This document shows positions 5,268 through 56,709 of a stretch of DNA of 64,000 nucleotides, one piece after another. The stretch is from NCBI GenBank assembly GCA_963744145.1, contig CAVUSO010000001.1, positions 2,062,831 through 2,126,830 of the forward strand, written 5' to 3'. The stretch's first letter is position 1; every line of letters starts with the position of its first letter. This stretch comes from an uncultured cyanobacterium (GTDB lineage: Bacteria > Cyanobacteriota > Cyanobacteriia > Cyanobacteriales > CAWUOF01). The position numbers were made by a program, and so were the translations under genes. Under the pieces are notes generated by a model that worked only from the letters and a program-made list of their open reading frames with translations, was not told the DNA's origin and made no database searches.

Positions 5268-5412
5268 TATCTCAGCAGAAGAAGGGTGAAGCATTCGGAT
5301 ATAATATTACTGCCCTTCGACTACGCTCAGGGTAAAGTTTAAGCGTTCAATTTTCGCCCGAATGCTTCACCCCTACACTTAACTGAACCGTATTGCATTA
5401 AATCAAACAAAA

Positions 5413-5697: not shown

Positions 5698-6083
5698 AGA
5701 TATCGGGGCTTTTTATTATGGGTTTAACCCTCATTGGGTGGGCAACAGTTGTCGGCTTAATCTCAATACAGTTCAGTTAATTGTAGGGGCGAAGCATTCG
5801 GGCGATAATTTATCACTTAAACCAGTTAATTTTATATCCGAATGCTTCGCCCTTCTTCTGTGCCGAGATCTCCAAAAACATTCTTAACTGAACCGTATTG
5901 TGCTTAATCTTGAATCGCGAAAGAGTTATTAATATAAGATATGCTGATCAAACCATAGGAAGACACCCGCCAGATGGCGATCGCATTCAGCCAGAAACTT
6001 AAACCGATTTCATGCTAAACTCATAGATGCAGTCTTACATTCTGGTTTCAAAAAATTAAAGATAATCAATAAGGACTAGAGCT

Positions 6084-6827: not shown

Positions 6828-6957
6828 ATATTGATGCTCTGTACTTATATAATCAGCTAGCGATCGCGTTTCACTCACCAACTATAAATAGCTGTAATCT
6901 AAAGGATGCGAAAAAATATTAGGCAAAGAAGACGATCGCTGATTTGATCCCAAAATA

Positions 6958-7292
6958 TTCTTAACTGAACCCTATTGTGCTATAATCTAGCTGAATCGAT
7001 TACCAAGAAAGTTTCAGTTGTTGATCAAAAACTGTCCGGACTATTGATTGATCAAGTACAGTAAGATTGTGGGACAAGCATCTTGCCTGTCCGATAAATT
7101 TGTCAGTTAAAGTCAGTTGTTAGTTATCTGTGTTGGTTGGGCAGGTTTATGATGGTGATCTGTTTGGAGCAAAATTGATTGGTGAACCTGCCCCTACAAA
7201 TCCTGGTTGATTGTGATTATAAATTCATCGATCATACATTTTATGATCTAGTTTAATCTGAAAACACGCCGCATCATAGTTCAATCCGGTTC
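6958..7292. mobile_element. MITE-like element (~335 bp) bounded by terminal inverted repeats CTTAACTGAACC…GGTTCAGTTAAG
   Basis: The left end at 6960-6980 (cttaactgaaccctattg) is the reverse complement of the right end at 7271-7292 (caatccggttcagttaagc). The interior is non-coding and carries a GGGACAAGCATCTTGCCTGTCC palindrome (7068-7092) and a long hairpin (7141-7195). The same TTAACTGAACCGTATTG terminus recurs at 5381, 5868, 18340, 47479 and 50726. Confidence 0.45.
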
Positions 7293-7541
7293 AGTTAAGC
7301 TAGGTCAGGTATATTTATCCTGATCTTGGTTACTGATGCTTGTCCGCTCGTTTACTCCTTGTTTAATCAAAAAGTCATTAAAGCTTGACATCTTTTTCAT
7401 AAATAGTAAAAATAGATACAGAACTTCTGAAAGTTTTTCAAAAGTTGCAAATTGCTCCCTGATCAGGAAACCCAGCTACTGGGACAATTTCCCTAGACTA
7501 GAGCTTAGTTAACCACTGTTAGAGACTTTTTTGGGCCAATT

Positions 7542-18189: not shown

Positions 18190-18210
18190 GATTTATAAAC
18201 CAATGCAATT

Positions 18211-18365
18211 CAGTTACCTGTAGGGGCGAAGCATTCGGGCGACAATTTATTGCTTAAAGGGAGTTAATATTAAATCCGAATGCTTCGCCCTTCGACTCCG
18301 CTCAGGGTAAACCCTTCTTCGTCGATATCTCCCAAAACATCTATTAACTGTACCGTATTGATTTA
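18211..18365. repeat. Hairpin-bearing dispersed repeat (GGGGCGAAGCATTCGGGCG…CCGAATGCTTCGCCC + CCTTCGACTCCGCTCAGGGTAAAC + TTAACTGTACCGTATTG)
   Basis: The same composite element occurs at 5283-5400, 5771-5900, 47393-47510 and 50590-50725. Confidence 0.7.
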
Positions 18366-20139: not shown

Positions 20140-20287
20140 GCGAATTTATCTTGATCCCAACATTCTCGCTTATGTTGCCAATACTAAAGCCCCTCAACAG
20201 GCTGCATTTGAGTTTGCCCGCTCGCGAAGTCGAAGTTTACCCGTTCGCGGAGTCGAAGGGGTAGTCGATGTAACTTTTTTGGTTTAA
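20081..20287 (+). pseudogene. PIN-domain (VapC-like) toxin remnant truncated by repeat insertion
   Basis: MAKEPKRIYLDPNILAYVAN is a typical PIN N-terminus (xIYLDTNILIY). After ~40 aa the ORF ends in low-complexity residues and runs into the repeat cluster starting at ~20290. Confidence 0.45.
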
Positions 20288-20289
20288 TT

Positions 20290-20500
20290 GAATTGGATTT
20301 TAATATATATAGTTGATCTGTTTGTTGCATAAATGGTAAGGGCAAAGCATTTCGGTAATATTATTCTTCCCTTCGACTACGCCCCCTTCGACTACGCTCA
20401 GGGTAAACTTCGACTCCGCCCTTCGACTACGCCCTTCGACTACGCTCAGGGTAAACTCAGGGTAAACTCAGGGTAAACTCAGGGTAAACGTTTAAGTAAT
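20290..20500. repeat. Composite short-dispersed-repeat cluster (GGGCAAAGCATTTCGG hairpin arms; CCTTCGACTACGC(T/C)C units; 4 x CAGGGTAAACT 11-mers)
   Basis: It has the same architecture as the 183-bp unit of the 50726-51262 tandem array, with the internal 11-mer expanded to 4 tandem copies. Confidence 0.75.
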
Positions 20501-20583
20501 GATTGATTTGCCGAAATGCGAAAGCCCCTACCCGGATTGACCGATATCTGGCGATCGCAATTGTCTCTCCTATAATTCAGTTT

Positions 20584-27349: not shown

Positions 27350-27364
27350 TTTTATTTTCCTTGA

Positions 27365-28699
27365 TTAACTTGTCGGTTTCCAAATTAATTTACCATTTCG
27401 ATCAACATAACCCCATTTATAATCTATTTCCGGAATTACTAGTTGAAAATTAGGAGCGGTTTTGGGACTTTTTACTTCCGTATTCTCGACCTCAATTAAT
27501 CCACCTTCGATATAACTAATATGACTAAACTGAGGAGGAATAATAATTTTACCGTCCCGGTTAATAAAACCGATCTTTTGATTAACTTCGATCGCAGCAA
27601 TTCCGTTAATGAACCGACCAGCACTATTAACTGACAGATTAGCAATCACGATTTTACCAGTTTGATCAATATAATTCCATTGATTGCCGATTTTGACTGC
27701 GGCTAAACCTTCACTAAAATATGTATAGTCATTAAATTGTGGTTTAATTATAATCTGACCTTGTTTATTTACATACCCCCACTTACCACCTATTTTCACA
27801 GGTGCGATTTCTTCAACTAAATATGTGGTTTGAGTGAATATAGGTAAACTGACTAAGTTTCCAGTTTTGTCAATCAATCCATACTTATCCCCAATTTTTA
27901 CAGGTGCTATTCCTTGGTAAAAAGAATTAGCGTCATCAAACTGAGGAGGAATAACTATTTTTCCACTTTGATCAATATAACCCCATTTTTGATTAATTTC
28001 CACTGCTGCTAGTCCCTCACTAAAATCGTGATCGCTAGAACCAAAAATATCATCTCCATGGATAGGAAATTGGATCGGGATGACTAGCTTTCCTTGGGAA
28101 TTAATAAAACCATACTTATCCCCAATTTCGATCCGAGCCATCTGTTCACTAAAATAATAAAGATGATCACAATGGGGCAATTCTATAATTTTTCCTGTAT
28201 GATCAACTAATGCGCGATTTTGAGCAAGTCTTACTTGTGCTAATCCTGATTGAAAATCACTAGCTAGATCGAATTCTATGGGGATAACTATGTGACCATT
28301 TTTGTCGATAAATCCGTATTTTGATCCAATTCTGATTCTTCCTAATCCCTCTTGAAAACTATATGCTTCATCAAACTGGGGAGTAATCACTATGTTTCCG
28401 GATCTGTTGATATACCCATACTTTTTATCCACTTTTATTGCTGCTAATCCTGCGGAAAAGCGAGAAGCTTCCTGAAAATTTGGTGGGATAATAATTTTAC
28501 CAGTAGAATCAATATAACCATATTTTCCCTGTTGCTTAATCAGTAATAGTAAAGGATCTGTTTGGTTGTTTTCCCTTAGTAACAGAGACTGCTCAGGTTT
28601 TGCTAAAAGGGACTGCGATCGCAGATCAATTAGAGATATTGCACAAACAACAGCAATTCCTACACCTACCAAGATTTTGAGGTTTAATTTGCGCTTCAT
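27365..28699 (-). CDS. Secreted KWG repeat protein, paralogue 2 of 3
   Basis: Same repeat architecture. An N-terminal TM/signal segment is present. Length 444 aa. Confidence 0.7.
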   Translation of the reverse strand: MKRKLNLKILVGVGIAVVCAISLIDLRSQSLLAKPEQSLLLRENNQTDPLLLLIKQQGKYGYIDSTGKIIIPPNFQEASRFSAGLAAIKVDKKYGYINRSGNIVITPQFDEAYSFQEGLGRIRIGSKYGFIDKNGHIVIPIEFDLASDFQSGLAQVRLAQNRALVDHTGKIIELPHCDHLYYFSEQMARIEIGDKYGFINSQGKLVIPIQFPIHGDDIFGSSDHDFSEGLAAVEINQKWGYIDQSGKIVIPPQFDDANSFYQGIAPVKIGDKYGLIDKTGNLVSLPIFTQTTYLVEEIAPVKIGGKWGYVNKQGQIIIKPQFNDYTYFSEGLAAVKIGNQWNYIDQTGKIVIANLSVNSAGRFINGIAAIEVNQKIGFINRDGKIIIPPQFSHISYIEGGLIEVENTEVKSPKTAPNFQLVIPEIDYKWGYVDRNGKLIWKPTS

Positions 28700-28762
28700 A
28701 TTCCACCAGTAGAGTGATTTTTTCTAACTTAGCTCAAAAAATAGAAACTGCCAATATGTTCA

Positions 28763-29842
28763 TTACTCCTTGGGTACAAGAAAGACTATTTTTCCAGATT
28801 TATCAATAAATCCAGCTTGATCATAATTAATAACTACAGCTGCTAATCCTTCTGAAAAATCTTCTGCGTAATCAAACTGAGCGGGAATTATGAGCTTACC
28901 CGTTTGATCAATATATCCCCATTTTGAATTGATTCTTACTGCTGACAATCCTTCATGGAAATCATGAGCAAAGCCAAAATTAGATGGGATTACTAATTTT
29001 CCATTGTGATCAAAAAAACCATACATTTCATCGTCAATTCTTACCCATGCTCGGTGTTCATGGAAGTTTCCGACCACAGCATACTTAGCAGGAATAACCA
29101 TTTTTCCGGTTTGATCTATATAACCAAATTGATCACCAACTTTTACAGCTGCTAATCCTTCTTTAAAAGGAGCAGCTAAATCAAATTGTAGGGGAATGAC
29201 AAGACGACCTGTTTGATCAATATAACCACTTTTACCACGACTATAGATTACTGCTAAACCTTCGGAAAAATTATCAGCATCACTAACATATAAAGAGATG
29301 ACAATTTTGCCAGTTTTGTCAATATATTTAATCTTAGTACCAATCTCTACTTTTGCTAGTCCCTCAGAAAAATAATCTGCTCGATCAAATTGAGGTGCGA
29401 TCGCAATTTTTCCTTGCTGATTCAAATATGCCCATTTGTTATTAATTGTGACTAATACTAATCCTTCGTGGAAAGTTGCAGCAAAATCAAAATTTGGAGG
29501 AATGACAAACTTTCCCGCTCGATTAATATAGCCAATCTTATTATTTATTTGCACCCGCGCTAATCCATCAATAAACGCTCCTGCATTTTCAAATTGTGGT
29601 TGAATGACAATTTTGCCAGTTTTGTCTACATAACCCAATTGATTACCGATCTGGATTGCTACCAATTCCTCGGAAAATCCTTGATTAATCTCCACCTCTG
29701 ACTTGTTTCTATTTGAGATTTGAGCTAACTCTAGAGTCTGATTTGCTGCAATAATTTGATTTGGATAAAGCGCGATCGCTAATCCCCAACTAAGGAGATA
29801 AAGAAAAAAAATAATAGACCTGTTCATTAATGGTAAATTCAA
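28763..29842 (-). CDS. Secreted KWG repeat protein, paralogue 1 of 3
   Basis: Same repeat architecture. Signal peptide MNRSIIFFLYLLSWGLAIALYPNQIIAA. Confidence 0.7.
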   Translation of the reverse strand: MNLPLMNRSIIFFLYLLSWGLAIALYPNQIIAANQTLELAQISNRNKSEVEINQGFSEELVAIQIGNQLGYVDKTGKIVIQPQFENAGAFIDGLARVQINNKIGYINRAGKFVIPPNFDFAATFHEGLVLVTINNKWAYLNQQGKIAIAPQFDRADYFSEGLAKVEIGTKIKYIDKTGKIVISLYVSDADNFSEGLAVIYSRGKSGYIDQTGRLVIPLQFDLAAPFKEGLAAVKVGDQFGYIDQTGKMVIPAKYAVVGNFHEHRAWVRIDDEMYGFFDHNGKLVIPSNFGFAHDFHEGLSAVRINSKWGYIDQTGKLIIPAQFDYAEDFSEGLAAVVINYDQAGFIDKSGKIVFLVPKE

Positions 29843-34090: not shown

Positions 34091-36721
34091 ATGGAAAAAT
34101 CCTATCAATATCAAGTTGGTGGAAGTTTACCGGAAAATGCACCGACTTATGTAGTAAGACAAGCTGACTTTGAGTTATTCGAGTACCTGAAAGCAGGAGA
34201 GTTTTGCTATGTCCTAAATTCCCGACAAATGGGAAAATCTAGTTTGCTAGTTCGCACTATGCAAAGGTTAATTGCTGCGGGAATTTCCTGTGCTAGTATC
34301 GATATTTCGGATCTCGGTAGTAAACAAATTTCTTTAGACCAATGGTATGGTGGTGTTGCTTATAAACTGGTGAGTAGTTTTAATATCTGTGATACTGTTG
34401 AGTTTATGAATTGGTGGCGATCGCGAGAATTAATTTCTCCGGTGCAGCGTTTAAGTGATTTAATCGAAAATTTGCTTCTCACCAGACTTGCAGGAAAATT
34501 GGTAATTTTTATTGATGAAATTGATAGTGTTTTAAGTTTTAATTATTGTCTGGATGATTTTTTTGCTTTAATTCGTGCTTGCTATAATAAACGCGCTCAA
34601 AATTTAGAATATAATCGATTAACTTTTGCCCTTCTCGGAGTTGCTACACCATCAGATTTAATCGCTGATCATACCAGAACACCGTTTAATATTGGTAGAG
34701 CGATTTCTCTGAATGGTTTTAGTTTAGCAGAAGCTCAACCCTTAGCTCATGGATTAGCAGCAAAAGTAGAAAATTCTCAACAAGTTCTCGCAGATATTTT
34801 AATTTGGACAGGAGGACAGCCATTTTTAACCCAAAAACTATGTCAAATTATTCTCCATACTTCGATTTCTGATCAGCAAGATTGGTTAGAGCATTTAGTC
34901 CGATCGCATATTATTGAAAATTGGGAATATCAAGATGAACCAGTCCACATTAAAACCGTGCGTGATCGTCTCCTCAGAAATCAACAAAGGGCAAGTAAAT
35001 TACTGGGAATCTATCAAAAAATCTTACAAGATAGTAAAATAATTGCTGACGATAGCCCCGAACAAATCGAATTACAGCTATCAGGTTTAGTCGTTAAATG
35101 TCAAGGTTATTTACGGGTTAATAACCTGATATATGCGTCTATTTTTAATCAAAATTGGGTGGAAAAATCTCTGTTTGATCTGCGCCCTTATGCTGAAGTA
35201 TTAGCAGCTTGGTTAGCTTCCCAATGTCAGGATGAATCGCGATTATTACGTGGAAAAGCTTTGCAAGATGCCAGGGAATGGGCTAATCATAAAAGTTTGA
35301 GTACCCCAGATTATCAATTTTTAACTGCTAGTCAAGAATATGAATTAGCTGAATTCCGCAAAAAAGAACAACAAACCCAAATTGAAATTACTCGACTTTC
35401 CCAGGAAAAAGAATTATTAGAAAAATTAAACCAAGAACAAGAACAACGTAAATTAATAGAAAAACAACTCCGACAGGAACGGATGCTTAAAGCTGAAATA
35501 ATGGTGAGATTATCTGCTGCTTTAATCGCGATTATAGCTTTTCTGATCGGTACATTCTGGGTGAAATCATCCATTGATGATAACCGAGAAAAAATTATCT
35601 CTATCAGTTTATTTTCTGAAGCCCTATTTGAAGAAGGTAGACCCCTAGATGCCCTCAGAGAAAGTATTAAAGCTGGAATAGAATTAAAAAAATCCTTGGA
35701 TATAGATGCTGCTACTCAGATGCGGGCTTTAATGGCATTAAACCAAGCAGTTTATAGCTTTCAAGAACGAGAAAAATTGCTGGGATATACCAGTAAAGTT
35801 ACTTTTGTAAATTTCAGTCCTGATAGTCAGATCATTGCTACTGCGAATACAGATAAAACTATCAAACTTTGGCAAAAAAATGGTAAATTTCTCTCAGTTT
35901 TAGCAGGGCATGACGCTACTATTTACAGTTTGAGTTTTAGTCCAAATGGTCAGATGATCGCTTCCGCAAGTGCAGATAAAACCGTCAAACTTTGGCAGCA
36001 GAGTGGCAAATTGATTACCACTTTAAAAGGACATACTGCTGCTATTTATAGTGTTATTTTTAGCCCTAATGGTAAGTTAATTGCATCTGCTAGTGGTGAT
36101 GGAACTGTAAAAATTTGGCAACTTAATGGTAAGTTAGTTACTACTTTAAAAGATAATGATGCTCCAATTTATAGTATTAGTTTTAGTCCGGATGGTCAAA
36201 AAATTGCATCTGCTAGTGGTGATGGAACTGTAAAAATTTGGCAGTCTGATGGGAAGTTTCTTCAGATTTTAAATGAACATAATGCTGCGGTGTTAAGTGT
36301 TAGTTATAGTCCAGATGGAACTATGCTTGCTTCTGCTAGTGCTGATGGTACGGTCAGACTTTGGGAGTCAAATGGTAAACGCTTAAGTATTTTTCGACAT
36401 AAAAGTAGAGTAAATAGTATTAGTTTTAGTTCGGATAATCAGATCATTGCTTCTGCTAGTGCTGATAAAATGGTTAGATTGTGGCACCGCGATGGGACGC
36501 TAATCAAAACTTTAAAAGTTCATCAAGATCAGGTTTTAAGTGTAAATTTTAGTCTAGATGGTATGATGTTGGGTTCAGTAAGTTCTGATGGAAATGTCAT
36601 TCTTTGGAATTTACAACTTGAAGATTTGTTGAAAGCAGCTTGTCAAATTATAGGCGATCGCGATCATATTTCCCAGGTCGATCAAAATGACCTACATCTG
36701 TGCGACGGTGTTTTTAGATAG
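34091..36721 (+). CDS. AAA_35-type NTPase - coiled coil - TM helix - 8x WD40 repeat protein (876 aa)
   Basis: [22 protein letters not shown] is the same NTPase family as the TIR protein. [10 protein letters not shown] is Walker [19 protein letters not shown] coiled coil follows. The TM segment is [18 protein letters not shown]. Eight repeats of …ASASxDxTVKLW… (WD40) are present. Confidence 0.7.
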
Positions 36722-40348: not shown

Positions 40349-40562
40349 TCCCTAATTTTTACCTAAATCAGTGATTATGGTGAAAAATGTGTTAAGTTTA
40401 ATTAAGTAGCCATTCAGGATAATTAGGATGATTGAAAATAAACCCCCTCAATGGAATCTCTGTAGATTTGTAAAAACTCTTAGTTATTTTAGAGTGATCC
40501 CCTTTGTCGGTCAAATTGATTGGTTACAGCAACTTTTGGGGACAAAGACTAAACATAAAACT

Positions 40563-41993
40563 ATGTCAAACAATCAATCTAATGTGATTCTAGTAGCTGG
40601 TGCTACTGGTGGTGTTGGTAAAAGAGTAGTACAACGTTTAAGGGAACAGGGTTATCAAGTGCGATCGCTAGTCCGAAATGCTAACAAAGCTAAAGAAATT
40701 TTGGGGAATCAAGTCGAAATTGTCGAGGGAGATATTAGTATTCCAGAAACCTTAACTGCTGAAGTTACCAATAATCTCAAAGCGATCATTTGTTGTACAG
40801 GGACAAGAGTCCAACCTGTGGAAGGAGACACCCCAACTCGGGAAAAATATTATCAGGGTCTTAAATTCTATCTTCCCGAAGTTGTAGATGTACCGGAGAT
40901 GGTTGAATATAAAGGAATTCAAAACCTTTTACAAGCTACCCGTAACCAGCTAATTTCCAGTGGAATTGATCAGGAAAAAGTCGTCTTTGACTTCACCCAA
41001 CCTACTTCAGATTTATCAGCAGTTTGGGGTGCTTTAGATGATATCGTCATGGGGGGAGTGAGTGAAAGTGGAATTCGATTAGTTAACAACACCGCGATCT
41101 TTTCAGGTAATGTTTCCACAGCAAATTCCGGTGGATTTGCTTCAGTCCGAACTCGCAATTTTGAATCCCCACTAAATTTAGCCGAATACCAGGGAATCTA
41201 TATCCGGGTAAGAGGAGATGGAAAACGATATAAATTTATTCTTCGTAATGAAGACAAATGGGATAGTATTGCTTACACCTATTCCTTTGATACAGTTTAT
41301 AATATCTGGATTAATATTCCCATTCCTTTTCATGCCTTAATTCCATCATTTCGGGCTAAAACAGTAAAAAATGCCGATAAATTTGACCCTAGTAAAATCT
41401 ACTCATTGCAACTAATGTTGAGTAAATTTGAATATGATGGTGAATTAAACCCCAAATTTAAACCAGGGTTATTTCAGTTAGAAGTTGAAGCGATTAAAGC
41501 TTATGGGAGTAAAAAATTACCCTTCGACTCCCCTTCGACTACGCCCTTCGACTACGCTCAGGGTAAACTCAGGACAAGCGCTCAGGGTACACCCCAATTT
41601 ATTCACATTAGTTCTGCTGGAGTTACTCGTCCAGGAAGACCAGGAATCAATCTAGACCAAGAACCTCCTGCGGTGAGATTAAATGACCAGTTAGGAGGGA
41701 TTTTAACCTGGAAATTAAAAGGTGAAGAAGCAATTCGTAAAAGTGGAATTCCCTACACTATTATTAGACCTTGTGCTTTGACTGAAGAACCAGGAGGTCA
41801 AGCATTAACCTTCGCCCAAGGAGATAATATTAGGGGTAAAGTTAGCCGTAATGATATTGCTGATCTTTGTCTTTATATATTAAATGAACCGCAAGCAGTG
41901 AATGTTACTTTTGAGGTGAAAGAAAGTCAAAATGAAGGAGAAAATAGGAATTGGGAAACTCAGTTTGCTAGTTTGCAACCCGATTCTCCATAG
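40563..41993 (+). CDS. NAD(P)-binding (NmrA/SDR-like) protein with embedded CIA30 domain, carrying an in-frame short-dispersed-repeat insertion
   Basis: VILVAGATGGVGKRVV Rossmann motif. DDIVMGGVSESG…FSGNVSTANSGGFASVRT marks the CIA30 domain. The C-terminal half of the NAD-binding fold resumes after the insertion. Start taken at the MSNNQSNV ATG (40563). Confidence 0.65.
   Translation: MSNNQSNVILVAGATGGVGKRVVQRLREQGYQVRSLVRNANKAKEILGNQVEIVEGDISIPETLTAEVTNNLKAIICCTGTRVQPVEGDTPTREKYYQGLKFYLPEVVDVPEMVEYKGIQNLLQATRNQLISSGIDQEKVVFDFTQPTSDLSAVWGALDDIVMGGVSESGIRLVNNTAIFSGNVSTANSGGFASVRTRNFESPLNLAEYQGIYIRVRGDGKRYKFILRNEDKWDSIAYTYSFDTVYNIWINIPIPFHALIPSFRAKTVKNADKFDPSKIYSLQLMLSKFEYDGELNPKFKPGLFQLEVEAIKAYGSKKLPFDSPSTTPFDYAQGKLRTSAQGTPQFIHISSAGVTRPGRPGINLDQEPPAVRLNDQLGGILTWKLKGEEAIRKSGIPYTIIRPCALTEEPGGQALTFAQGDNIRGKVSRNDIADLCLYILNEPQAVNVTFEVKESQNEGENRNWETQFASLQPDSP
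41522..41594 (+). repeat. In-frame SDR insertion within a CDS, the same repeat as at 20370-20470 and in the 50726-51262 array
   Basis: The DNA cccttcgactccccttcgactacgcccttcgactacgctcagggtaaactcaggacaagcgctcagggtacac encodes …PFDSPSTTPFDYAQGKLRTSAQGT… in the middle of the protein. Confidence 0.7.
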
Positions 41994-44706: not shown

Positions 44707-44727
44707 GGACAGTCAAGATGACTGTCC
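44707..44727 (+). terminator. Palindromic hairpin after rplI (GGACAGTCAAGATGACTGTCC)
   Basis: Perfect 9-bp stem with a 3-nt loop immediately after the stop. It belongs to the GGACAG…CTGTCC palindrome family seen at 7068, 54558, 54610, 56609 and 56652. Confidence 0.5.
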
Positions 44728-44821
44728 CACAATTGGTAATTGGTATTGATTAATATTACCAATTACCTCCATTTTCACGGTAATATGAATATTAACATCC
44801 TCCATCAACCCATGATTTACT

Positions 44822-47392: not shown

Positions 47393-47510
47393 TCTAATCT
47401 GAGCGATCGGGTAAACTCAGGGCAAGGCTCAGGGTAAAGTTTGATTGTTCAATTGTCGCTAAATATGCTTCATCCCTACACTTAACTGAACTGTATTGAG
47501 CGATCGTCAA
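47393..47510. repeat. Dispersed repeat copy (CTCAGGGTAAAC units + TTAACTGAACTGTATTG terminus)
   Basis: It shares the 3' module with the elements at 5283-5400 and 18211-18365. Confidence 0.55.
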
Positions 47511-48743: not shown

Positions 48744-49088
48744 ATGGCTGATTGTCCCCATTGTCATCAATCAATCCCCAGTCAGGCGATCGCTTGTCCC
48801 TACTGTCGGACGATCCTCAAAGCTTATGGTCATCCGGGGATTCCCCTTTATCACTCTCACAGTACAGAATTTCTCTGTCAGAGTTGCACCTATCATGAGG
48901 ATAATAGCTGTACCTTTCCTCAACGTCCTTTTGCTCGGGAATGTACTCTTTATTGCGATCGCTCCCAACCTCTGACTCAACCCCAATTTTCTCCTCCAGG
49001 ATTCCGACTGAGAATTTGGTGGGAAAGTTACCAAATTTGGGTAATTCTGCTGGTGATCTTAATTATCAGTTTACTCCTTTCTTTATAA
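48744..49088 (+). CDS. Zinc-ribbon protein with C-terminal TM anchor
   Basis: CPHCHQ…CPYCRT and further C-x2-C pairs. The C-terminal WVILLVILIISLLLSL is hydrophobic. Confidence 0.4.
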   Translation: MADCPHCHQSIPSQAIACPYCRTILKAYGHPGIPLYHSHSTEFLCQSCTYHEDNSCTFPQRPFARECTLYCDRSQPLTQPQFSPPGFRLRIWWESYQIWVILLVILIISLLLSL

Positions 49089-50543
49089 CCCAATGATCAC
49101 TCCACTACGAGATGGTAGACTTAAGGTTAAATAATCGGATTCTCCTTGACGAGACCAAGCAATGTCTCCTGCACCATATAATAACTGATCGGGCTGAGAT
49201 TTTAAGGCAGTTACGGCAAAATTAACTGTTTCAGGATTATTACCAATATTTACAGCAACAATAATTTCTTCTGTTGCTAAAATCCGGGCAAAAACATAAA
49301 CATTTGTTTCGGCAAAAAGTACCTGATAAGCACCCGTCCGAAGAGCAGGATATTGGTGACGTAGAGCGATTAATTTTTGATGATATGCCAAAACCTCCCT
49401 ATTCCAATTAGATTCTAAGGGAAAACCACGCCGAGAATCCGGATCTAAACGACCTGGTAAACCAACTTCATCCCCATAGTAAATACTCGGAGCGCCGGGA
49501 TAGGTTAATAATAATAATGTGGCTAAGTGAACACTACTTTGATCATCTTTAGCGATCGAAATTAGTCTTGCTGTATCATGACTAGCTAATAAATTGAGTT
49601 GAGTTAGTTGAATTTCCCAAGGGTATAATTTCAGTAAATCTTCGATTTTTTTAGCATATTCATCAGCTAACAAAGCTGGATAAGGTTGATAAGCACGATC
49701 CTTGACTAAATCCATCTCCACCCGATCGCCCGTAGTAAAAGCAATTGTTGGTGCTGTAAATAAATAATTCATTACCCCATCAAATTGATGACCATCTAAC
49801 CAGATCCGAGCATCAGTCCAAACTTCACCAACAATATAAGCTTCTGGATTAATTGCTTTGACGCGATCGCGAAATTCTTGCCAAAATCCGGAAACTTTAA
49901 TCTCATAAGGTACATCTAATCTCCAACCATCAATGCCGAATTGAATCCAATATTCGGCAATTTGCATGAGATATTCCCGCACTTCTGGATTATTATGATT
50001 AAATACGGGTAAAGCGCGATTACCTGCCCAACCTTGATAATTAGCAGGAAAATCACCATTATAGGCACAAATCGGCCATTGGTCAACTTTAAACCAATTG
50101 AGCCAAGGTGAATGAGGACCATTTTCTAGAATATCATGAAAACCGAAAAACCCACGACTAGCATGATTAAACACACCATCCAGCACAACTTTAATTTGTC
50201 GTTGATGCGCTGCATCTAGTAATTCTTGAAAAGCCTGATTTCCGCCCAAAACGGGATCGACTTGATAATAATCATGGGTATGATAACGATGATTACAAGC
50301 AGATTGAAAAATCGGTGTAAAATAAATTGCATTAATACCTAAACTTTGCAAATAATCTAATTTTTCAATTACCCCCCATAAATCACCACCTTTATAACCT
50401 TGTAAAGTAGGAAGCGCATCCCAATCTTCCCAAGTAGCATTTTGTAGTAATCGCTGGTGTGATTTTTGACTTTTGGCAAATCGATCTGGAAAAATTTGAT
50501 AAAAAACCGCGTGTTTAACCCAATCTGGGGTATAAATTCCCAT
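49083..50543 (-). CDS. GH13 alpha-amylase-family glycoside hydrolase (alpha-glucosidase/maltodextrinase-like)
   Basis: GH13 conserved regions: GINAIYFTPIF, VVLDGVFNHAS, GWRLDV, YIVGEVW, LLASHD. Confidence 0.8.
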   Translation of the reverse strand: MGIYTPDWVKHAVFYQIFPDRFAKSQKSHQRLLQNATWEDWDALPTLQGYKGGDLWGVIEKLDYLQSLGINAIYFTPIFQSACNHRYHTHDYYQVDPVLGGNQAFQELLDAAHQRQIKVVLDGVFNHASRGFFGFHDILENGPHSPWLNWFKVDQWPICAYNGDFPANYQGWAGNRALPVFNHNNPEVREYLMQIAEYWIQFGIDGWRLDVPYEIKVSGFWQEFRDRVKAINPEAYIVGEVWTDARIWLDGHQFDGVMNYLFTAPTIAFTTGDRVEMDLVKDRAYQPYPALLADEYAKKIEDLLKLYPWEIQLTQLNLLASHDTARLISIAKDDQSSVHLATLLLLTYPGAPSIYYGDEVGLPGRLDPDSRRGFPLESNWNREVLAYHQKLIALRHQYPALRTGAYQVLFAETNVYVFARILATEEIIVAVNIGNNPETVNFAVTALKSQPDQLLYGAGDIAWSRQGESDYLTLSLPSRSGVIIGL

Positions 50544-50589
50544 TCATCTAGCCTCCCAGGATACAACTTTTTCAGAAAATTAGGTCAAT

Positions 50590-50725
50590 TTAATCCAATC
50601 CGGTTCTAGGAGCAAAGCATTCGGGCGATAATTAATCGCTTAAATCCGTTAATATTATATCCGAATGCTGATGCCGTAGGCATCGCTACGCGAACGCCCT
50701 TCTTCTTCGATATCTCCTAAAAACG
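50590..50725. repeat. Hairpin repeat copy (AGCAAAGCATTCGGGCG…ATCCGAATGCT) preceding the tandem array
   Basis: Same family as the copies at 5771 and 18211. The 3' arm is degenerate. Confidence 0.55.
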
Positions 50726-51262
50726 CCTTAACTGAATGTATTTTAATATCTAGTTGATCTGTTGGCTGCATACATGGTGAGGGCAAAGCATTTCGGTAAT
50801 ATTATGCTTCCCTTCGACTACGCCCTTCGACTCCGCTCAGGGTAAACTCAGGGTAAACGTTTCAACCATCATTTATGCGCCGAAATGCTTTGCCCCTACG
50901 GTTAACGCCTTAACTGAATGTATTTTAATATCTAGTTGATCTGTTGGCTGCATACATGGTGAGGGCAAAGCATTTCGGTAATATTATGCTTCCCTTCGAC
51001 TACGCCCTTCGACTCCGCTCAGGGTAAACTCAGGGTAAACGTTTCAACCATCATTTATGCGCCGAAATGCTTTGCCCCTACGGTTAACGCCTTAACTGAA
51101 TGTATTTTAATATCTAGTTGATCTGTTGGCTGCATACATGGTGAGGGCAAAGCATTTCGGTAATATTATGCTTCCCTTCGACTACGCCCTTCGACTCCGC
51201 TCAGGGTAAACTCAGGGTAAACGTTTCAGCCATCATTTATGCGCCGAAATGCTTTGCCCCTA
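50726..51262. repeat. Tandem array: 3 copies of a 182-183-bp composite unit (long hairpin arms GGGCAAAGCATTTCGG / CCGAAATGCTTTGCCC flanking SDR units)
   Basis: Unit starts (cttaactgaatgtattttaatatctagttgatctg) are at 50726, 50909 and 51091. The copies are near-identical. The array has no unique spacers, so it is not a CRISPR. Confidence 0.85.
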
Positions 51263-51295
51263 CTTTCTATATCAGCTACCGCAGTAGGAGATATT

Positions 51296-51583
51296 TCAAT
51301 CTGGTAAACCATATTTTTCGTGGAGTTCTGCAAATGCTTGTTTTAGAGGTATCCCTTTTCCTTGCTCAAATTCTGCCATACTTTTGCCGATACCCACAAT
51401 CGACTCCAGTAACTCAATCCGATCGAGAAGTTGCTGGTAACCTTCAGCATCTTGAACAACAGCAGCAGCTTTACCATTAACAGTCAGAACTATTGGGGCT
51501 TTAGTTTCTTTAAGTCTTGTCAGGAAAGCTTTCGCACCCCGTTGGAACTCGGAGAGAGGATAGATGTCACTCAAACTGAGCAT
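51296..51583 (-). CDS. Phd/YefM-family antitoxin (orphan; no toxin ORF downstream)
   Basis: PLSEFQRGAKAFLTRLKETKAPIVLTVNGKAAAVVQDAEGYQQLLDRIELLE is a canonical Phd/YefM sequence. Its 3' neighbour is the tandem repeat array rather than a toxin. Confidence 0.7.
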   Translation of the reverse strand: MLSLSDIYPLSEFQRGAKAFLTRLKETKAPIVLTVNGKAAAVVQDAEGYQQLLDRIELLESIVGIGKSMAEFEQGKGIPLKQAFAELHEKYGLPD

Positions 51584-51832
51584 AATATTTTCAAAAAATT
51601 ATTTGATAATTTCATGCTAACAGTTGGCAATTGTTTTGTCTATGGTGCGATCGCGAAGCGTTGCGGCTCTTGGGATCGTTTGTTTGTGGGGTAGCCCGCT
51701 TGGGAGAATTTGGCAGGGTGATTGCTGCGATCGGAGAATTATCATTCCTAAATGGCGATTTAATCACAGAATTGAACCCAATACAGTGACACTATAACTA
51801 TAATAGAATCAATTCCTCTCCTCTCAAACACC

Positions 51833-52090
51833 ATGCAAATTATTTTGCCACCTGAAGCCGAAGCCCTCGTACAGCGTCAACTTATGAGTGGCAAATATCA
51901 AAGCGCGATCGAAGTTATCCTCGCGGGTATTCAACTACTCGAACAGCCAGAAGATATTTATCAGGGACGACTCTCTGAACTCCAACGAGATGCAATGCTT
52001 GGCTGGGAAGCATCCCAACGCGGTCAAGTTGTAGATGGTCCGACAGCTATAGAACAAATTCGTACTAATCTACGATCGGACAAGATGTAG
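51833..52090 (+). CDS. ParD-like (RHH, PF03693-type) antitoxin (orphan)
   Basis: LPPEAEALVQRQLMSGKYQSAIEVILAGIQLLEQ matches ParD/UPF0156. No ParE-like ORF follows. Confidence 0.55.
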   Translation: MQIILPPEAEALVQRQLMSGKYQSAIEVILAGIQLLEQPEDIYQGRLSELQRDAMLGWEASQRGQVVDGPTAIEQIRTNLRSDKM

Positions 52091-52188
52091 AATCGAGATT
52101 TATCAACTCTGTTCACAGATGAAGAAATTTAATCAAAAATAAAATCTCGATCAGCAGGGGCGTATCAACCTACGCCCCAAATTTTTAG

Positions 52189-52560
52189 TTATAAAGAATC
52201 TAGATCAAGCGATCGCGATCCACCTTTTTCTAACTGATTTAACAGTTTACCTAACTGCACCCAAACTAACCCAGCAATCAGCACCGTTAGTGGTAAAGAA
52301 AGCTGGTAGGACATAGTTTTCGGAAACCCAAAAACCTCTAATCCAGCCGATAAAAATAAACCAATTCCGATCGTAATCCCCAAAAAAGGAATTCCTAATA
52401 ACGTCCCTTGGATATTAGATAGAGAATGGGTAGAACGGTTTTTTGACCACTCATGTACCTGTTGTTTGAGACTTGATTGAAATGCTAACCCTGATGTTAA
52501 AGCAATTAGCAGCCCAGCTAACAGTAAAACATAGGGAGGGTCAGGAAAATAATAGTACAA
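52189..52560 (-). CDS. Hypothetical small membrane protein (3-4 TM)
   Basis: Hydrophobicity pattern only. Confidence 0.35.
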   Translation of the reverse strand: MYYYFPDPPYVLLLAGLLIALTSGLAFQSSLKQQVHEWSKNRSTHSLSNIQGTLLGIPFLGITIGIGLFLSAGLEVFGFPKTMSYQLSLPLTVLIAGLVWVQLGKLLNQLEKGGSRSLDLDSL

Positions 52561-52596
52561 GTAGGCACTCCTTACATCAGATTAACTACACTAAAT

Positions 52597-54348
52597 TCAC
52601 TTCTGATTAAACGCTGTAAAAGCAACTGTTGGCAATACCGTAGCTGCTCCCTCCGTCGAAAATCCAGCTAACGCACCTAAAGCCGCATTCCACCAACGAG
52701 ATGGTTGTAAATCATCTTTAACTAAGTCCCATAAACGACGAACTTCTTCTGTGTGAAGACGATCATCTTCAATCAATGCAAGTAACAATTGTTTGCGGAG
52801 AAATGCTCCTTCATCAGAAAGTAAATATTGTAACCCCATCCCCGCAGTTGGTAGTAGATCAAATTTAGTATCTGAACGGGCGATCGCGATCATATTTTCC
52901 AGTCTTTCCCACTGAAATTTACCATTTTTAAACAATACATTAATTAGGCGTCGGCGCAACTCGGGCGATTCTCCCATCAGTAAACGTCTGGCTACATAAG
53001 GATAGGCAACTTCGACAATTTTGAAGTCCGGATTTATGCTTAAGGCTAATCCTTCCTGTGTCACTAAAGAGCGAATAATTAAAGCAAACTTCGCGGGTAC
53101 ACGGAAAGGATAATCATACATTAACTCACTAAAGCGATCGGTAATAGTTTTGAAGTTAAAATCCCGGACTTTTTCGCCGATAATATCCCCCAATACGGAT
53201 TCTAAAGCTGGCACAATCGGCAGAATATCGGTTTCTGGGGTCAGAAAACCTAATTTCACAAAGTCTTCAGCTAAATCTAGATAGTCTTTATTGATCAGAT
53301 GTACTACGGCATCTACTAAATTTTCTTTAGTAGTTTCCTCCAATTGATCCATCATCCCAAAATCAATATAAGCCATTCTCCCACTGTGGATCAAATGACC
53401 AGAATTTGCTTCACCCTCAACCGTACATTGAGGTGGAAGAGCAAAAAGATTACCTGGATGGGGGTCAGCATGGAAAAATCCGTATTCTAACAGTTGCTGT
53501 AATCCCGAAGTTACACCGATCCGAATCAGTGCATCTGGATCTAACCCCGCTTGGGCAAGTTTGTGAGCGTCAGTCAGTTTAAATCCATGAATCCATTCTA
53601 GAGTCAGAACGCGGTTACTACTATAACGCCAGTAGATCCTCGGTACTTTGATATTAGGCTCATTGCGGAAATTGGCGGCAAATTTTTCGGCGTTACGACC
53701 TTCATTGTGATAATCTATTTCTTCAAATAGTTTGATGCCAAATTCATCGACAATCAAACTTAAATCATGCCCAAGATTTAAGGGTAGCCAGGGAGCCATC
53801 CAACTAGCAGCCCAGCGCATGAGATATAAGTCTAAAGTTAGTGTGGGTAGTAAATTAGGACGTTGAACTTTGACCGCTACTTCTTCACCACTGTGCAGAC
53901 GAGCTTGATAAACTTGTCCCAAACTAGCCGCAGCAACGGGAATGGGGGAAATTTGCTGATAAATCTCTTCAATGGTTCGCTCTAGTTCAGTTTCGATCAA
54001 CTCCAGTGCGATCGCATTATCAAAGGGCGGAAGTTGGTCTTGTAACTTCACTAACTCTTCTAAATAGTCTTTGTGAATTAAATCCGGTCTGGTGGACAAA
54101 GCTTGACCAACTTTGATAAAAGTAGGGCCAAGGTCTGTCAAAATATGCCGGAGCTGCTCGGCTCGCTGAGATTTATGTTCCCCCGCTTGATGTTGCCATT
54201 GATCCCAGAGGAAACCCAGCATAAATCCCGCAAAATTCCAAAAAATGCTTAACATTCGCCAGAAAGCTTGCCAAGGACGACGACGATAATAGCGGGCGAT
54301 CGCTTCTGGATCGTAACGCTTCATCTGAGCGAGTGGATGCTGACTCAC
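52597..54348 (-). CDS. ABC1/UbiB/ADCK-family atypical kinase
   Basis: PIPVAAASLGQVYQARLHSGEEVAVKVQRPN (AAASxAQVH…VAVKVQxP), HADPHPGN and IDFGMM are all present, as in ABC1 kinases. Confidence 0.8.
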   Translation of the reverse strand: MSQHPLAQMKRYDPEAIARYYRRRPWQAFWRMLSIFWNFAGFMLGFLWDQWQHQAGEHKSQRAEQLRHILTDLGPTFIKVGQALSTRPDLIHKDYLEELVKLQDQLPPFDNAIALELIETELERTIEEIYQQISPIPVAAASLGQVYQARLHSGEEVAVKVQRPNLLPTLTLDLYLMRWAASWMAPWLPLNLGHDLSLIVDEFGIKLFEEIDYHNEGRNAEKFAANFRNEPNIKVPRIYWRYSSNRVLTLEWIHGFKLTDAHKLAQAGLDPDALIRIGVTSGLQQLLEYGFFHADPHPGNLFALPPQCTVEGEANSGHLIHSGRMAYIDFGMMDQLEETTKENLVDAVVHLINKDYLDLAEDFVKLGFLTPETDILPIVPALESVLGDIIGEKVRDFNFKTITDRFSELMYDYPFRVPAKFALIIRSLVTQEGLALSINPDFKIVEVAYPYVARRLLMGESPELRRRLINVLFKNGKFQWERLENMIAIARSDTKFDLLPTAGMGLQYLLSDEGAFLRKQLLLALIEDDRLHTEEVRRLWDLVKDDLQPSRWWNAALGALAGFSTEGAATVLPTVAFTAFNQK

Positions 54349-54534
54349 GCTTTCAGTGCCTCTAAAAGTAATTTTTTTGAACTTATTTAAACATTACCCG
54401 TTTAGCTAGGCTAACGAGTTAAATTAACTGTTTATATTTTTTGATCAGTTTACAAAACTATATACTATTTAGCACCTACTTTTGCCCTAATTTAACAATC
54501 TTTTCCGTAAAAATGCCTATTCCCTCAATTAACC

Positions 54535-54660
54535 TATTTAATTCTGGGAAAGATTGTGGGACAGACATCTTGTCTGTCCAATAAACTATTTAATTCTGGG
54601 AAAAATTGTGGGACAGACATCTTGTCTGTCCAATAAACTATTTAATTCTGGGAAAAATTG
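54535..54660. repeat. About 2.4 tandem copies of a 53-bp unit containing the perfect palindrome GGGACAGACATCTTGTCTGTCC
   Basis: The palindromes are at 54558-54579 and 54610-54631. The array lies between the 3' end of the aminotransferase gene and the 5' region of the ABC1 kinase gene. Confidence 0.75.
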
Positions 54661-54684
54661 TTGGACTGATGGTAGGAGAAACCC

Positions 54685-56588: not shown

Positions 56589-56709
56589 ACCTCTTGCAAA
56601 AATAAATAGGACAGGCAAGATGCCTGTCCCACCAGAATCAATAACTTTTGTGGGACAGGCATCTTGCCTGTCAATAACATAGATCAATAAGGACTTTTGC
56701 AAGAGGTCT
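56587..56709. repeat. Compound palindromic element: 15-bp inverted repeats (AGACCTCTTGCAAAA / TTTTGCAAGAGGTCT) enclosing two GGACAGGCA(A/T)GATGCCTGTCC hairpins
   Basis: The inverted repeats are at 56587-56601 and 56695-56709. The hairpins are at 56609-56629 and 56652-56672. The element lies in the intergenic region between the Uma2 and FetB-like genes. Confidence 0.7.

What the first reader, a model, noticed from the sequence alone, without database searches (positions are those of the whole stretch)
50590..51262. Three tandem 183-bp composite repeat units and a dispersed hairpin-repeat family
The unit (cttaactgaatgtattttaatatctagttgatctg…gggcaaagcatttcgg…ccttcgactacgcccttcgactccgctcagggtaaactcagggtaaac…ccgaaatgctttgccc…) contains a ~16-bp perfect inverted repeat enclosing SDR units, so each copy can form a long stem-loop. 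Related single copies are at 20290-20500, 5283-5400, 5771-5900, 18211-18365 and 47393-47510. They share the TTAACTGAAC(C/T)GTATTG end and a GCGAAGCATTCGG/CCGAATGCTTCGC hairpin. The array replaces the expected toxin gene downstream of an orphan Phd antitoxin (51296..51583). The elements look like a family of MITEs or small RNA-like structured repeats with local amplification.
Basis: seen in the sequence. Interest (0 to 1): 0.5.

Follow-up and report, generated by a model that had tools for sequence, protein, structure and literature searches.

The report
Tandemly triplicated decayed cyanobacterial MITE
A 182-bp piece of a small, non-coding "jumping DNA" element common in filamentous cyanobacteria has been copied three times head to tail and has replaced most of a toxin gene; it is real, but it is an ordinary kind of selfish repeat and not a new genetic system.

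Summary
The array is 50722-51263, the period is 182 (not 183), and there are three copies; units 1 and 2 are identical and unit 3 has one internal substitution. 50596-50744 is a separate, decayed element abutting the array.

The dispersed relatives are a MITE family. Complete copies (5764-5900; 18201-18360) are 137 bp plus or minus a 24-nt insert. They have 17-18-nt terminal inverted repeats (CAATACNGTTCAGTTAAG) and 9/10-matching 10-bp target-site duplications. The same ends bound a 1.5-kb IS4-family insertion sequence with an exact 10-bp duplication in a metagenome contig. They also bound short MITEs in three Nostoc species.

The MITE core is a GTAG-tagged hairpin with a 15-16-bp perfect stem and three compensatory arm variants. 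A plasmid of Allocoleopsis, a cyanobacterium outside Nostocales, carries the same hairpin. Hairpin loops carry 24-nt SDR-type mini-insertions.

The 182-bp unit is a one-ended, SDR-loaded derivative, amplified by tandem duplication, not transposition.

The array abuts codon 17 of a ParE-family toxin gene whose other 99 codons are gone, leaving an orphan Phd antitoxin.

There is no Rfam match and no promoter or terminator signal. Verdict: a new member of a known kind, of low interest.

The parts
50596..50744 (+). Degenerate type-A MITE copy abutting the array. The left end CAATCCGGTTC lacks 9 nt, the right hairpin arm is broken by a 26-nt palindromic insert, and the right end is TTAACTGAATGTATTTT.
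   Evidence: Sequence; alignment with the other copies; BLAST 90.9% over 55 nt to 5792-5846; fold.
50722..50903 (+). Tandem unit 1 (182 nt). It consists of the 23-nt MITE right end, a 35-nt spacer, the hairpin with SDR-loaded loop, and CTACGGTT.
50904..51085 (+). Tandem unit 2, identical to unit 1.
51086..51263 (+). Tandem unit 3 (178 nt). It has one substitution at 51229 and ends at CTAC directly against the toxin remnant.
50781..50895 (.). Hairpin of unit 1: 16-bp perfect arms at 50781-50796 and 50880-50895, 83-nt loop. The same hairpin lies at 50963-51077 and 51145-51259.
50810..50858 (+). SDR cluster in the loop: CCCTTCGACTACG, CCCTTCGACTCCG, CTCAGGGTAAA x2. It repeats at 50992-51040 and 51174-51222.
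   Evidence: the repeat finder family D8; pattern search.
51262..51312 (-). Remnant of a ParE-family toxin gene: codons 1-17, MVYQIEISPTAVADIES. The start overlaps the Phd stop by 17 nt.
   Evidence: Intact 116-aa partners are seen in L069, L070 and L071.
51296..51583 (-). Phd/YefM antitoxin gene (95 aa), now without a toxin.
   Evidence: Pfam PF02604, E = 3.9e-11; homologues.
49083..50543 (-). GH13 alpha-amylase-family gene. Its start codon lies 53 nt from the repeat complex, so the repeats occupy its upstream region.
5764..5900 (+). Complete type-A MITE (137 bp). Ends are CAATACAGTTCAGTTAA and TTAACTGAACCGTATTG. Flanking 10-mers GGCTTAATCT and TGCTTAATCT match at 9 of 10 positions.
18201..18360 (+). 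Complete type-A MITE carrying one 24-nt SDR insert after the right arm. Flanking 10-mers ATTTATAAAC and ATTTATAAAT match at 9 of 10 positions.
5276..5395 (-). Type-A copy truncated at one end. It has a 24-nt SDR in the loop and compensatory arm variants GGGTGAAGCATTCGG / CCGAATGCTTCACCC.
47393..47498 (-). Half copy: one end motif, one hairpin arm, and SDR units where the loop would be.
20283..20539 (+). Single copy of the array's own subtype (type B). It has a larger SDR cluster, a decayed right arm and a remnant of the end motif (CCGGATTG).
6925..6977 (+). Solo right-end fragment of the family. A further solo end lies at 7282-7299 on the other strand.
41520..41592 (+). The same SDR units inserted in frame inside a CIA30 / NAD-binding gene (40428-41993).

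Best explanation
The locus is a stack of selfish repeats of kinds already known from filamentous cyanobacteria. It was then amplified locally.

Layer 1 is a non-autonomous MITE. It is 137 bp long, has 17-18-nt terminal inverted repeats CAATACNGTTCAGTTAAG, and makes a 10-bp target duplication. It is moved in trans by an IS4-family DDE transposase that recognises those ends. In size and duplication length it is Nezha-like.

Layer 2 is the MITE's core, a GTAG-tagged hairpin with a 15-16-bp stem. Its pairing is kept through compensatory changes.

Layer 3 is a set of 24-nt SDR-type mini-insertions and their 11- and 13-nt slippage products. They sit mostly in the hairpin loop.

The 182-bp unit is a decayed derivative with one recognisable end. 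It can no longer transpose. It lay next to another decayed copy whose end motif points the same way.

Inferred history:
1. An illegitimate join at a 3-nt AAC microhomology made the first duplication.
2. Unequal homologous exchange made the third copy.
3. A deletion removed codons 18-116 of the neighbouring ParE toxin gene. It ended at the GTAG end of the last hairpin, where 3 nt (GTA) are shared with the toxin sequence. This left an orphan Phd antitoxin.

Shown here: the repeats, the ends, the duplications, the IS4 partner type, the hairpins and the toxin truncation.
Inferred: the order and mechanism of the duplication and deletion events, and that an active transposase exists or existed in this genome.
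For: Array and near-identity of units.

MITE features.
- End motif 7 times against 0.19 expected.
- Two complete copies with flanking 10-mers matching at 9 of 10.
- The same ends with exact 10-bp duplications around short elements in three Nostoc species: L010 GGTTATAGTC, L016 CCCCATAGAC, L006 CACTTAAGTG.
- The same 18-nt ends bound a 1513-bp element at L068 9371-10883. It has the exact 10-bp duplication AGAGCTATAC, and its ORF hits Nterm_IS4 (1.5e-17) and DDE_Tnp_1 (1.9e-15).
- A second copy of that transposase (87.6% identical) lies beside the same end motif in L066.

Literature. Nezha is about 130-170 bp, shares its ends with ISNpu3 (PMC3184786) and has a 10-bp direct repeat (PMC6042816).

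Hairpin.
- All copies fold with 15-17-bp perfect stems, z from -4.2 to -7.6.
- Three arm variants each change on both sides.
- The same module is 80.5% identical over 74 nt on the Allocoleopsis PCC 7113 plasmid.
- It occurs as short-loop palindromes in L062.

The unit is a fragment, not a transposing element.
- It is 91% identical to the single copy at 20283-20539, while the three units are 99-100% identical to each other.
- Each junction re-uses the 23-nt end of the neighbouring copy.

Toxin truncation.

Independent read support. The Logan contig L002 matches 51234-54582 exactly. It therefore begins at the first 31-mer unique to the right flank, so the read graph branches at the unit end.
Against: - No IS4 transposase lies in the 64-kb window (tblastn). 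The rest of the genome could not be read, so a partner in this organism is unproven.
- The interior of the MITE is unrelated to the interior of the IS; only the 18-nt ends are shared.
- Neither complete copy has a perfectly matching 10-bp duplication (9 of 10 in both).
- The 182-bp unit has only one degenerate end motif and no duplication of its own, so its membership rests on homology of the hairpin, the loop and one end.
- The junction GGTT can also be read as 4 nt of filler, so the exact duplication path is uncertain.
- No closely related genome was available for an empty-site comparison. The best amylase homologue is 78% identical, and none of the 53 amylase loci carries the Phd gene.
Confidence: 0.8

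Rival explanations
1. The mobile or maintained unit is the GTAG-tagged hairpin itself, a REP/REPIN-like element handled by a RAYT-type (IS200/IS605-like HUH) tyrosine transposase. The end motifs are passengers or preferred targets. Both the array and the toxin-gene breakpoint arose by cleavage and joining at GTAG.
For: - The hairpin starts with GTAG in the A copies and ends with CTAC in the array units.
- The toxin breakpoint and the end of every unit fall exactly at that tetranucleotide.
- The same stem occurs without the MITE ends in Allocoleopsis and as classic short-loop palindromes, several per 8 kb, in L062.
- Arms co-vary.
- GTAG-tagged REPs are reported in filamentous cyanobacteria (PMC3733652).
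Against: - Complete copies in the window carry inverted ends and 10-bp duplications, the signature of DDE transposition and not of HUH single-strand transposition.
- Loops here are 36-83 nt, far longer than in REPs.
- No RAYT gene was seen among the window proteins scanned.
- The REP that flanks the Nostoc punctiforme RAYT is a different sequence, GTTGGGTT...AACCCAAC (PMC3116915 supplement).
Confidence: 0.1
2. The three units are a tandem array of small structured RNA genes or a cis-regulatory RNA upstream of the amylase gene, in the manner of the NsiR1 arrays of Nostocales.
For: - Each unit folds into a long stable stem-loop.
- Arm changes are compensatory.
- The array lies on the transcribed path between phd and the amylase gene, which are on the same strand. 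It is therefore probably transcribed at least by read-through.
Against: - No Rfam family matches at the gathering threshold in the window, nor at E up to 10 in 50400-51700 apart from one chance hit outside the array.
- No promoter-like site inside the array and no terminator-like site.
- Dispersed copies lie in both orientations and carry transposon hallmarks.
- The B-specific 26-mer is absent from metagenome contigs.
- Palindromic DNA elements keep pairing without any RNA role.
Confidence: 0.06
3. The copy number is an assembly artefact: the true locus has one or two units.
For: - Units 1 and 2 are identical.
- Short-k assemblies of run ERR11571142 break on both sides of the locus.
Against: - The Logan contig on the right begins exactly where 31-mers become unique. 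The reads therefore contain the unit end in at least two contexts, the junction and the flank.
- Unit 3 carries a private substitution.
- The source contig is 7.63 Mb, which suggests long reads.
- The run may be the one used for the assembly, so this is not fully independent.
Confidence: 0.05

Closest known systems
Nezha and related IS4-type MITEs of Anabaena and Nostoc (Zhou et al. 2008; summarised in PMC3184786 and PMC6042816)
   Same: - Host group.
- Size: 137 bp here, against about 130-170 bp.
- 10-bp direct repeat at insertion.
- Terminal inverted repeats shared with a full-length insertion sequence.
- Stable predicted secondary structure.
- Intergenic copies.
   Different: The Nezha and ISNpu3 end sequences could not be retrieved, so identity of the ends is untested. 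The array unit is a one-ended derivative amplified in tandem, which is not described for Nezha in the texts I could read.
IS4-family insertion sequence in metagenome contigs JAESFT010000177.1 (L068) and Ga0326734_1033156 (L066)
   Same: Identical 18-nt ends, CAATACGGTTCAGTTAAG, and a 10-bp target duplication.
   Different: It is 1513 bp and encodes the transposase. Its interior is unrelated to the MITE interior. It was not found in the window.
GTAG-tagged REPs and REPINs (PMC3733652; PMC3116915)
   Same: A GTAG tag at one end of a palindrome, a high copy number in some genomes (L062), arms that stay complementary, and arrangement within larger repeats.
   Different: Long loops, embedding between DDE-type inverted ends with target duplications, no linked RAYT gene seen, and a sequence different from the RAYT-flanking REP of Nostoc punctiforme.
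Small dispersed repeats (SDR) of Nostoc punctiforme and relatives (Elhai et al. 2008, Genome Res 18:1484; recalled from memory, paper not held)
   Same: Units of 21-27 nt (24 here), dispersed, nested inside hairpin or MITE-like contexts, and also inserted in frame in genes.
   Different: Sequence identity to SDR1-8 was not testable. Here the 24-mer also breaks into 13- and 11-nt sub-units that expand in tandem.
Minisatellite inside a MITE of Porphyromonas gingivalis (PMC4596501)
   Same: Tandem repetition arising within or from a MITE.
   Different: A different organism, element and scale; known to me only from the abstract.

Membership tests
MITE (IS4-derived, Nezha-like) | Terminal inverted repeats | tested here: met
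   Ends CAATACAGTTCAGTTAA / TTAACTGAACCGTATTG at 5764-5900, and CAATGCAATTCAGTTA / TTAACTGTACCGTATTG at 18201-18360. The 182-bp array unit has only one degenerate end.
MITE (IS4-derived, Nezha-like) | Target-site duplication of fixed length | tested here: met
   10-bp flanks match at 9 of 10 for both complete window copies. They are exact 10-bp repeats for same-ended elements in L006, L010, L016 and L068. The array units have none.
MITE (IS4-derived, Nezha-like) | Small, non-coding, multicopy | tested here: met
   137 bp; the only ORF of 40 aa or more listed across 50544-51295 is a 43-aa frame at 50655-50786; seven loci in 64 kb.
MITE (IS4-derived, Nezha-like) | Ends shared with an autonomous insertion sequence | tested here: met
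   L068 9371-10883 has identical 18-nt ends, with Nterm_IS4 and DDE_Tnp_1 in its ORF. Presence of such an IS in this genome was not testable; there is none in the window.
MITE (IS4-derived, Nezha-like) | End sequence identical to published Nezha or ISNpu3 | not testable with these tools
   The Nezha paper, Wolk 2010 and the A. variabilis chromosome were not available. Only size and the 10-bp repeat could be compared.
REP / REPIN with RAYT | GTAG at one end of the palindrome | tested here: met
   GTAGGGGCGAAGC... in the A copies and ...GCCCCTAC in the array units.
REP / REPIN with RAYT | Short palindrome (about 20-40 bp) or a doublet of such palindromes | tested here: not met
   In the window the arms are 15-16 bp, separated by 36-83 nt. 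Short-loop versions exist only in L062.
REP / REPIN with RAYT | Linked RAYT (Y1/HUH) transposase gene | tested here: inconclusive
   None among the 17 window proteins scanned. The whole genome is not available.
SDR (Elhai 2008) | Dispersed unit of 21-27 nt inserted into otherwise conserved sequence | tested here: met
   A 24-nt insert distinguishes 18201-18360 from 5764-5900. An in-frame cluster lies in a gene. There are 8 matches against 0.00 expected.
SDR (Elhai 2008) | Sequence belongs to one of SDR1-8 | not testable with these tools
   The paper is not held. The string search of the library gave only chance primer hits.
Tandem sRNA gene array (NsiR1-like) or other Rfam family | Match to a curated RNA family; promoter and terminator per unit | tested here: not met
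   No Rfam match. No promoter-like site in the array and no terminator-like site.
Type II Phd-ParE toxin-antitoxin pair | Antitoxin gene followed by an overlapping intact toxin gene | tested here: not met
   Phd is intact. The toxin keeps 17 of 116 codons. Intact pairs are seen in L069, L070 and L071.

The most novel reading that the evidence does not exclude
The smallest layer, the 24-nt SDR unit, may be inserted by microhomology-primed copying of exactly one period of a periodic (tandem or circular) 24-nt template, and it is not confined to cyanobacterial chromosomes.

In the MITE at 18201-18360 the insert is 24 nt flanked by the 6-nt repeat CCCTTC. In an SU10-like phage gene of 65% G+C the insert is 24 nt flanked by GTGAAC / GTAAAC. 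The two inserts are circular permutations of the same 24-mer. The phage copy is identical over 25 nt to the copies in this 38.5% G+C window. Homologues of the phage protein carry 0, 1 or 2 units.

If this holds up, the array studied here sits on top of a very small, widely distributed insertion process whose mechanism has been open since 2008.
Probability: 0.2. Interest if true: 0.65.

Novelty: new member of a known kind. Interest (0 to 1): 0.22.

Why it matters
For this genome it is mainly annotation hygiene.
- The region should be labelled as MITE- and SDR-derived repeats plus a truncated ParE pseudogene, not as a gene or an RNA locus.
- The array is a likely site of strain-to-strain length variation and of assembly breaks.

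It is also a clean example of how repeat-associated rearrangement turns a toxin-antitoxin pair into an orphan antitoxin, and of repeats taking over the upstream region of a housekeeping gene.

The wider point is the three-level nesting: IS4-type ends, a GTAG hairpin and 24-nt SDRs. Together with the SDR side observation, this touches the unresolved question of how very small repeats move.

Tried and rejected
- Rfam at the gathering threshold on the whole window and at E up to 10 on 50400-51700: nothing relevant.
- blastn of 50583-51300 against PLSDB plasmids: no match.
- The B-specific 26-mer against metagenome contigs: no match.
- SDR and hairpin patterns in about 770 kb of other cyanobacterial loci: essentially absent.
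- Full-text search for six sequence strings: only chance primer hits.
- Elhai 2008 and Wolk 2010 are not held. The MUSTv2 supplements are not held. The text of the Di Nocera paper does not print the cyanobacterial GTAG consensus. Membership in named families Nezha, SDR1-8 and GTAG-12/15/16 could therefore not be settled by sequence.
- Empty-site comparison. The closest amylase homologues are 74-78% identical, and none of 53 loci has Phd or the ABC1 kinase nearby. The Gloeotrichia Phd loci (94% identical) sit in a different context.
- Sequencing-adapter contamination. I considered this for the end motif, because I recall the nanopore adapter as sharing GTTCAGTTA and CGTATTG in another arrangement. 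I rejected it: the motif bounds elements with exact target duplications in the Nostoc assemblies L006, L010 and L016.
- Remnants of the toxin 3' part elsewhere in the window: none.

Full report
WHAT IS THERE

Tandem Repeats Finder reports one array at 50722-51263 with period 182, 3.0 copies, 99% matches and score 1077. The repeat finder gives three in-register 182-nt copies starting at 50722, 50904 and 51086. Units 1 and 2 are identical. Unit 3 has one internal substitution (51229) and stops 4 nt short, at CTAC.

Each unit contains a 16-bp perfect inverted repeat: GGGCAAAGCATTTCGG at 50781-50796 and CCGAAATGCTTTGCCC at 50880-50895. The 83-nt loop between the arms holds a 49-nt cluster of short repeats, CCCTTCGACTACG, CCCTTCGACTCCG and CTCAGGGTAAA twice. 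The unit folds around this stem (-53.7 kcal/mol, z = -3.6).

The stretch 50596-50744 is a separate, decayed element. Its last 23 nt are also the first 23 nt of the repeat unit.

THE DISPERSED FAMILY IS A MITE

The 17-nt end motif occurs 7 times in the window against 0.19 expected. The hairpin arm occurs 7 times against 0.06 expected.

Two copies are complete.
- 5764-5900 is 137 bp. Its ends are CAATACAGTTCAGTTAA and TTAACTGAACCGTATTG. Its flanking 10-mers are GGCTTAATCT and TGCTTAATCT.
- 18201-18360 is the same element plus a 24-nt insert. Its flanking 10-mers are ATTTATAAAC and ATTTATAAAT.

The other copies are partial.
- 5276-5395 is truncated at one end.
- 47393-47498 is a half copy.
- 6925-6977 and 7282-7299 are solo ends.
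- 20283-20539 is the only other copy of the array's own subtype. It is 91% identical over 105 nt.

All lie between genes.

The same 18-nt ends bound short elements with exact 10-bp duplications in three Nostoc species: L010, L016 and L006.

A pattern built from the extended end seen in two IMG/VR contigs found a 1513-bp element in a metagenome contig, L068 9371-10883. That element has identical inverted ends and an exact 10-bp duplication, AGAGCTATAC. Its ORF carries Nterm_IS4 and DDE_Tnp_1. A second, 87.6%-identical copy of the transposase lies beside the same end motif in L066.

So the ends are those of an IS4-family insertion sequence, and the small elements are its non-autonomous derivatives. 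The literature describes Nezha in Anabaena and Nostoc as about 130-170 bp, with ends like ISNpu3 and a 10-bp direct repeat (PMC3184786, PMC6042816). The match in size and duplication length is good. I could not obtain the published end sequence.

THE CORE HAIRPIN

In the orientation that starts with GTAG, the complete copies read GTAGGGGCGAAGCATTCGG, a loop of 36-37 nt, then CCGAATGCTTCGCCC. Every copy folds with a 15-17-bp perfect stem.

Three arm variants exist, and each is changed on both sides:
- GGGCGAAGCATTCGG
- GGGTGAAGCATTCGG
- GGGCAAAGCATTTCGG

The module, loop included, is 80.5% identical over 74 nt to a site on a plasmid of Allocoleopsis franciscana PCC 7113, which is not a member of Nostocales. 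The same stem appears several times as a short-loop, GTAG-tagged palindrome in an 8-kb contig of 56% G+C.

The hairpin is therefore older and more widespread than this MITE, and it looks REP-like. I found no linked RAYT gene. The REP that flanks the Nostoc punctiforme RAYT is a different sequence. This stays a rival reading, not the main one.

THE ARRAY IS A TANDEM DUPLICATION OF A DEAD COPY

The unit has one degenerate end motif (TTAACTGAATGTATTTT), no second end beyond TTAAC, and no target duplication. The units are 99-100% identical to each other but only 91% identical to the single copy at 20283-20539.

Each junction reads CCCCTAC-GG-TTAAC-GCC-TTAACTGAATG. This is the start of the unit's own right end, joined at AAC to the 23-nt right end of the neighbouring decayed copy.

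My inference:
1. One illegitimate join occurred at a short microhomology.
2. One unequal exchange followed.

A reading with 4 nt of filler (GGTT) cannot be excluded.

The Logan contig L002 from run ERR11571142 matches 51234-54582 exactly. It therefore starts at the first 31-mer that is unique to the right flank. This shows that the reads contain the unit end in more than one context.

THE TOXIN GENE

Phd (51296-51583, minus strand) is intact. In Floridanema and Calothrix relatives, a 116-aa ParE-family toxin gene starts 17 nt before the Phd stop.

The window has that start and the first 17 codons, MVYQIEISPTAVADIES. Nucleotide homology ends at 51261/51262, where the last hairpin begins. No other part of the toxin is present in the window.

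The two sequences share GTA at the junction.

In two Gloeotrichia genomes and one metagenome contig, the toxin next to a 90-94%-identical Phd is also broken, by a stop codon or a frameshift.

WHAT IT IS NOT

- No Rfam family matches.
- The array has no promoter-like site, and there is no terminator-like site.
- The array lies between phd and the amylase gene on the same strand, 53 nt from the amylase start. It is probably transcribed by read-through and may affect amylase expression. That is speculation.

SOURCE AND LIMITS

The window comes from a 7.63-Mb contig of a Nostocales-like cyanobacterium. It has 38.5% G+C and many GCGATCGC sites. No close relative is present in the collections. The array subtype and the SDR units were not found in other loci. 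No empty-site comparison was possible.

VERDICT

The finding is real and correctly read in outline by the first stage. It belongs to known kinds of selfish DNA. The only lead with some novelty is the side observation on the 24-nt units, recorded under things noticed in passing.

Noticed in passing
L074 729-950; L075 3001-3198; L076 344-589; L077 584-829 (compare window 18289-18312): The exact 25-mer CCCTTCGACTACGCTCAGGGTAAAC of the window's SDR units occurs in frame in a small gene of an SU10-like phage structural module of 65% G+C. Homologues carry 0, 1 or 2 units at that site, and a GC-richer variant sits at the C-terminus. The insert is 24 nt flanked by GTGAAC / GTAAAC. In the window MITE it is 24 nt flanked by CCCTTC, a circular permutation of the same unit.
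   Followed up: partly
window 41520-41592: A cluster of the same SDR units (about 73 nt) sits in frame inside a CIA30 / NAD_binding_10 gene (40428-41993), between the two domains. It encodes ...PFDSPSTTPFDYAQGKLRTSAQGT....
   Followed up: partly
L056 8272-8625, L057 8272-8625, L060 1430-1630: The ParE toxin next to the closest Phd homologues (two Gloeotrichia echinulata genomes and one metagenome contig) is also a pseudogene, with an in-frame stop or a frameshift. This antitoxin lineage has lost its toxin repeatedly, and by different routes.
   Followed up: partly
window 51833-52090: A second small antitoxin-like gene (ParD/RHH, Pfam E = 1.1e-5) lies 250 nt from phd on the other strand. No toxin gene follows it; the next gene is on the opposite strand.
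   Followed up: no
window 54530-54666, 56610-56672, 7069-7101, 44707-44734: Another dispersed palindromic repeat family, GTGGGACAGGCAAGATGCCTGTCCCAC. It includes a 52-bp tandem (2.6 copies) and a 23-bp perfect inverted pair. The Logan contig L002 breaks inside the tandem.
   Followed up: no
window 3716-4789 and 26200-29700: Long in-gene tandem repeats of period 102 nt (34 codons) lie in a 1336-aa ORF and in three adjacent minus-strand ORFs. A 123-nt period lies at 35802-36607. These are repeat proteins, unrelated to the finding.
   Followed up: no
window 50615-50644 and 47443: The Logan contig L001 ends at 50644, although 31-mers there are unique within the window. It also ends at 47443, inside SDR units. 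This suggests further near-identical MITE copies elsewhere in the genome.
   Followed up: no
L019 2070-2150; L015 4346-4420: In Nostoc loci the same CAATACGGTTCAGTTAAG end is followed by the GTAG-tagged GTTGGGTT...AACCCAAC palindrome. That palindrome flanks the Nostoc punctiforme RAYT according to the PMC3116915 supplement. IS4-type ends therefore pair with different REP-like cores in different lineages.
   Followed up: no
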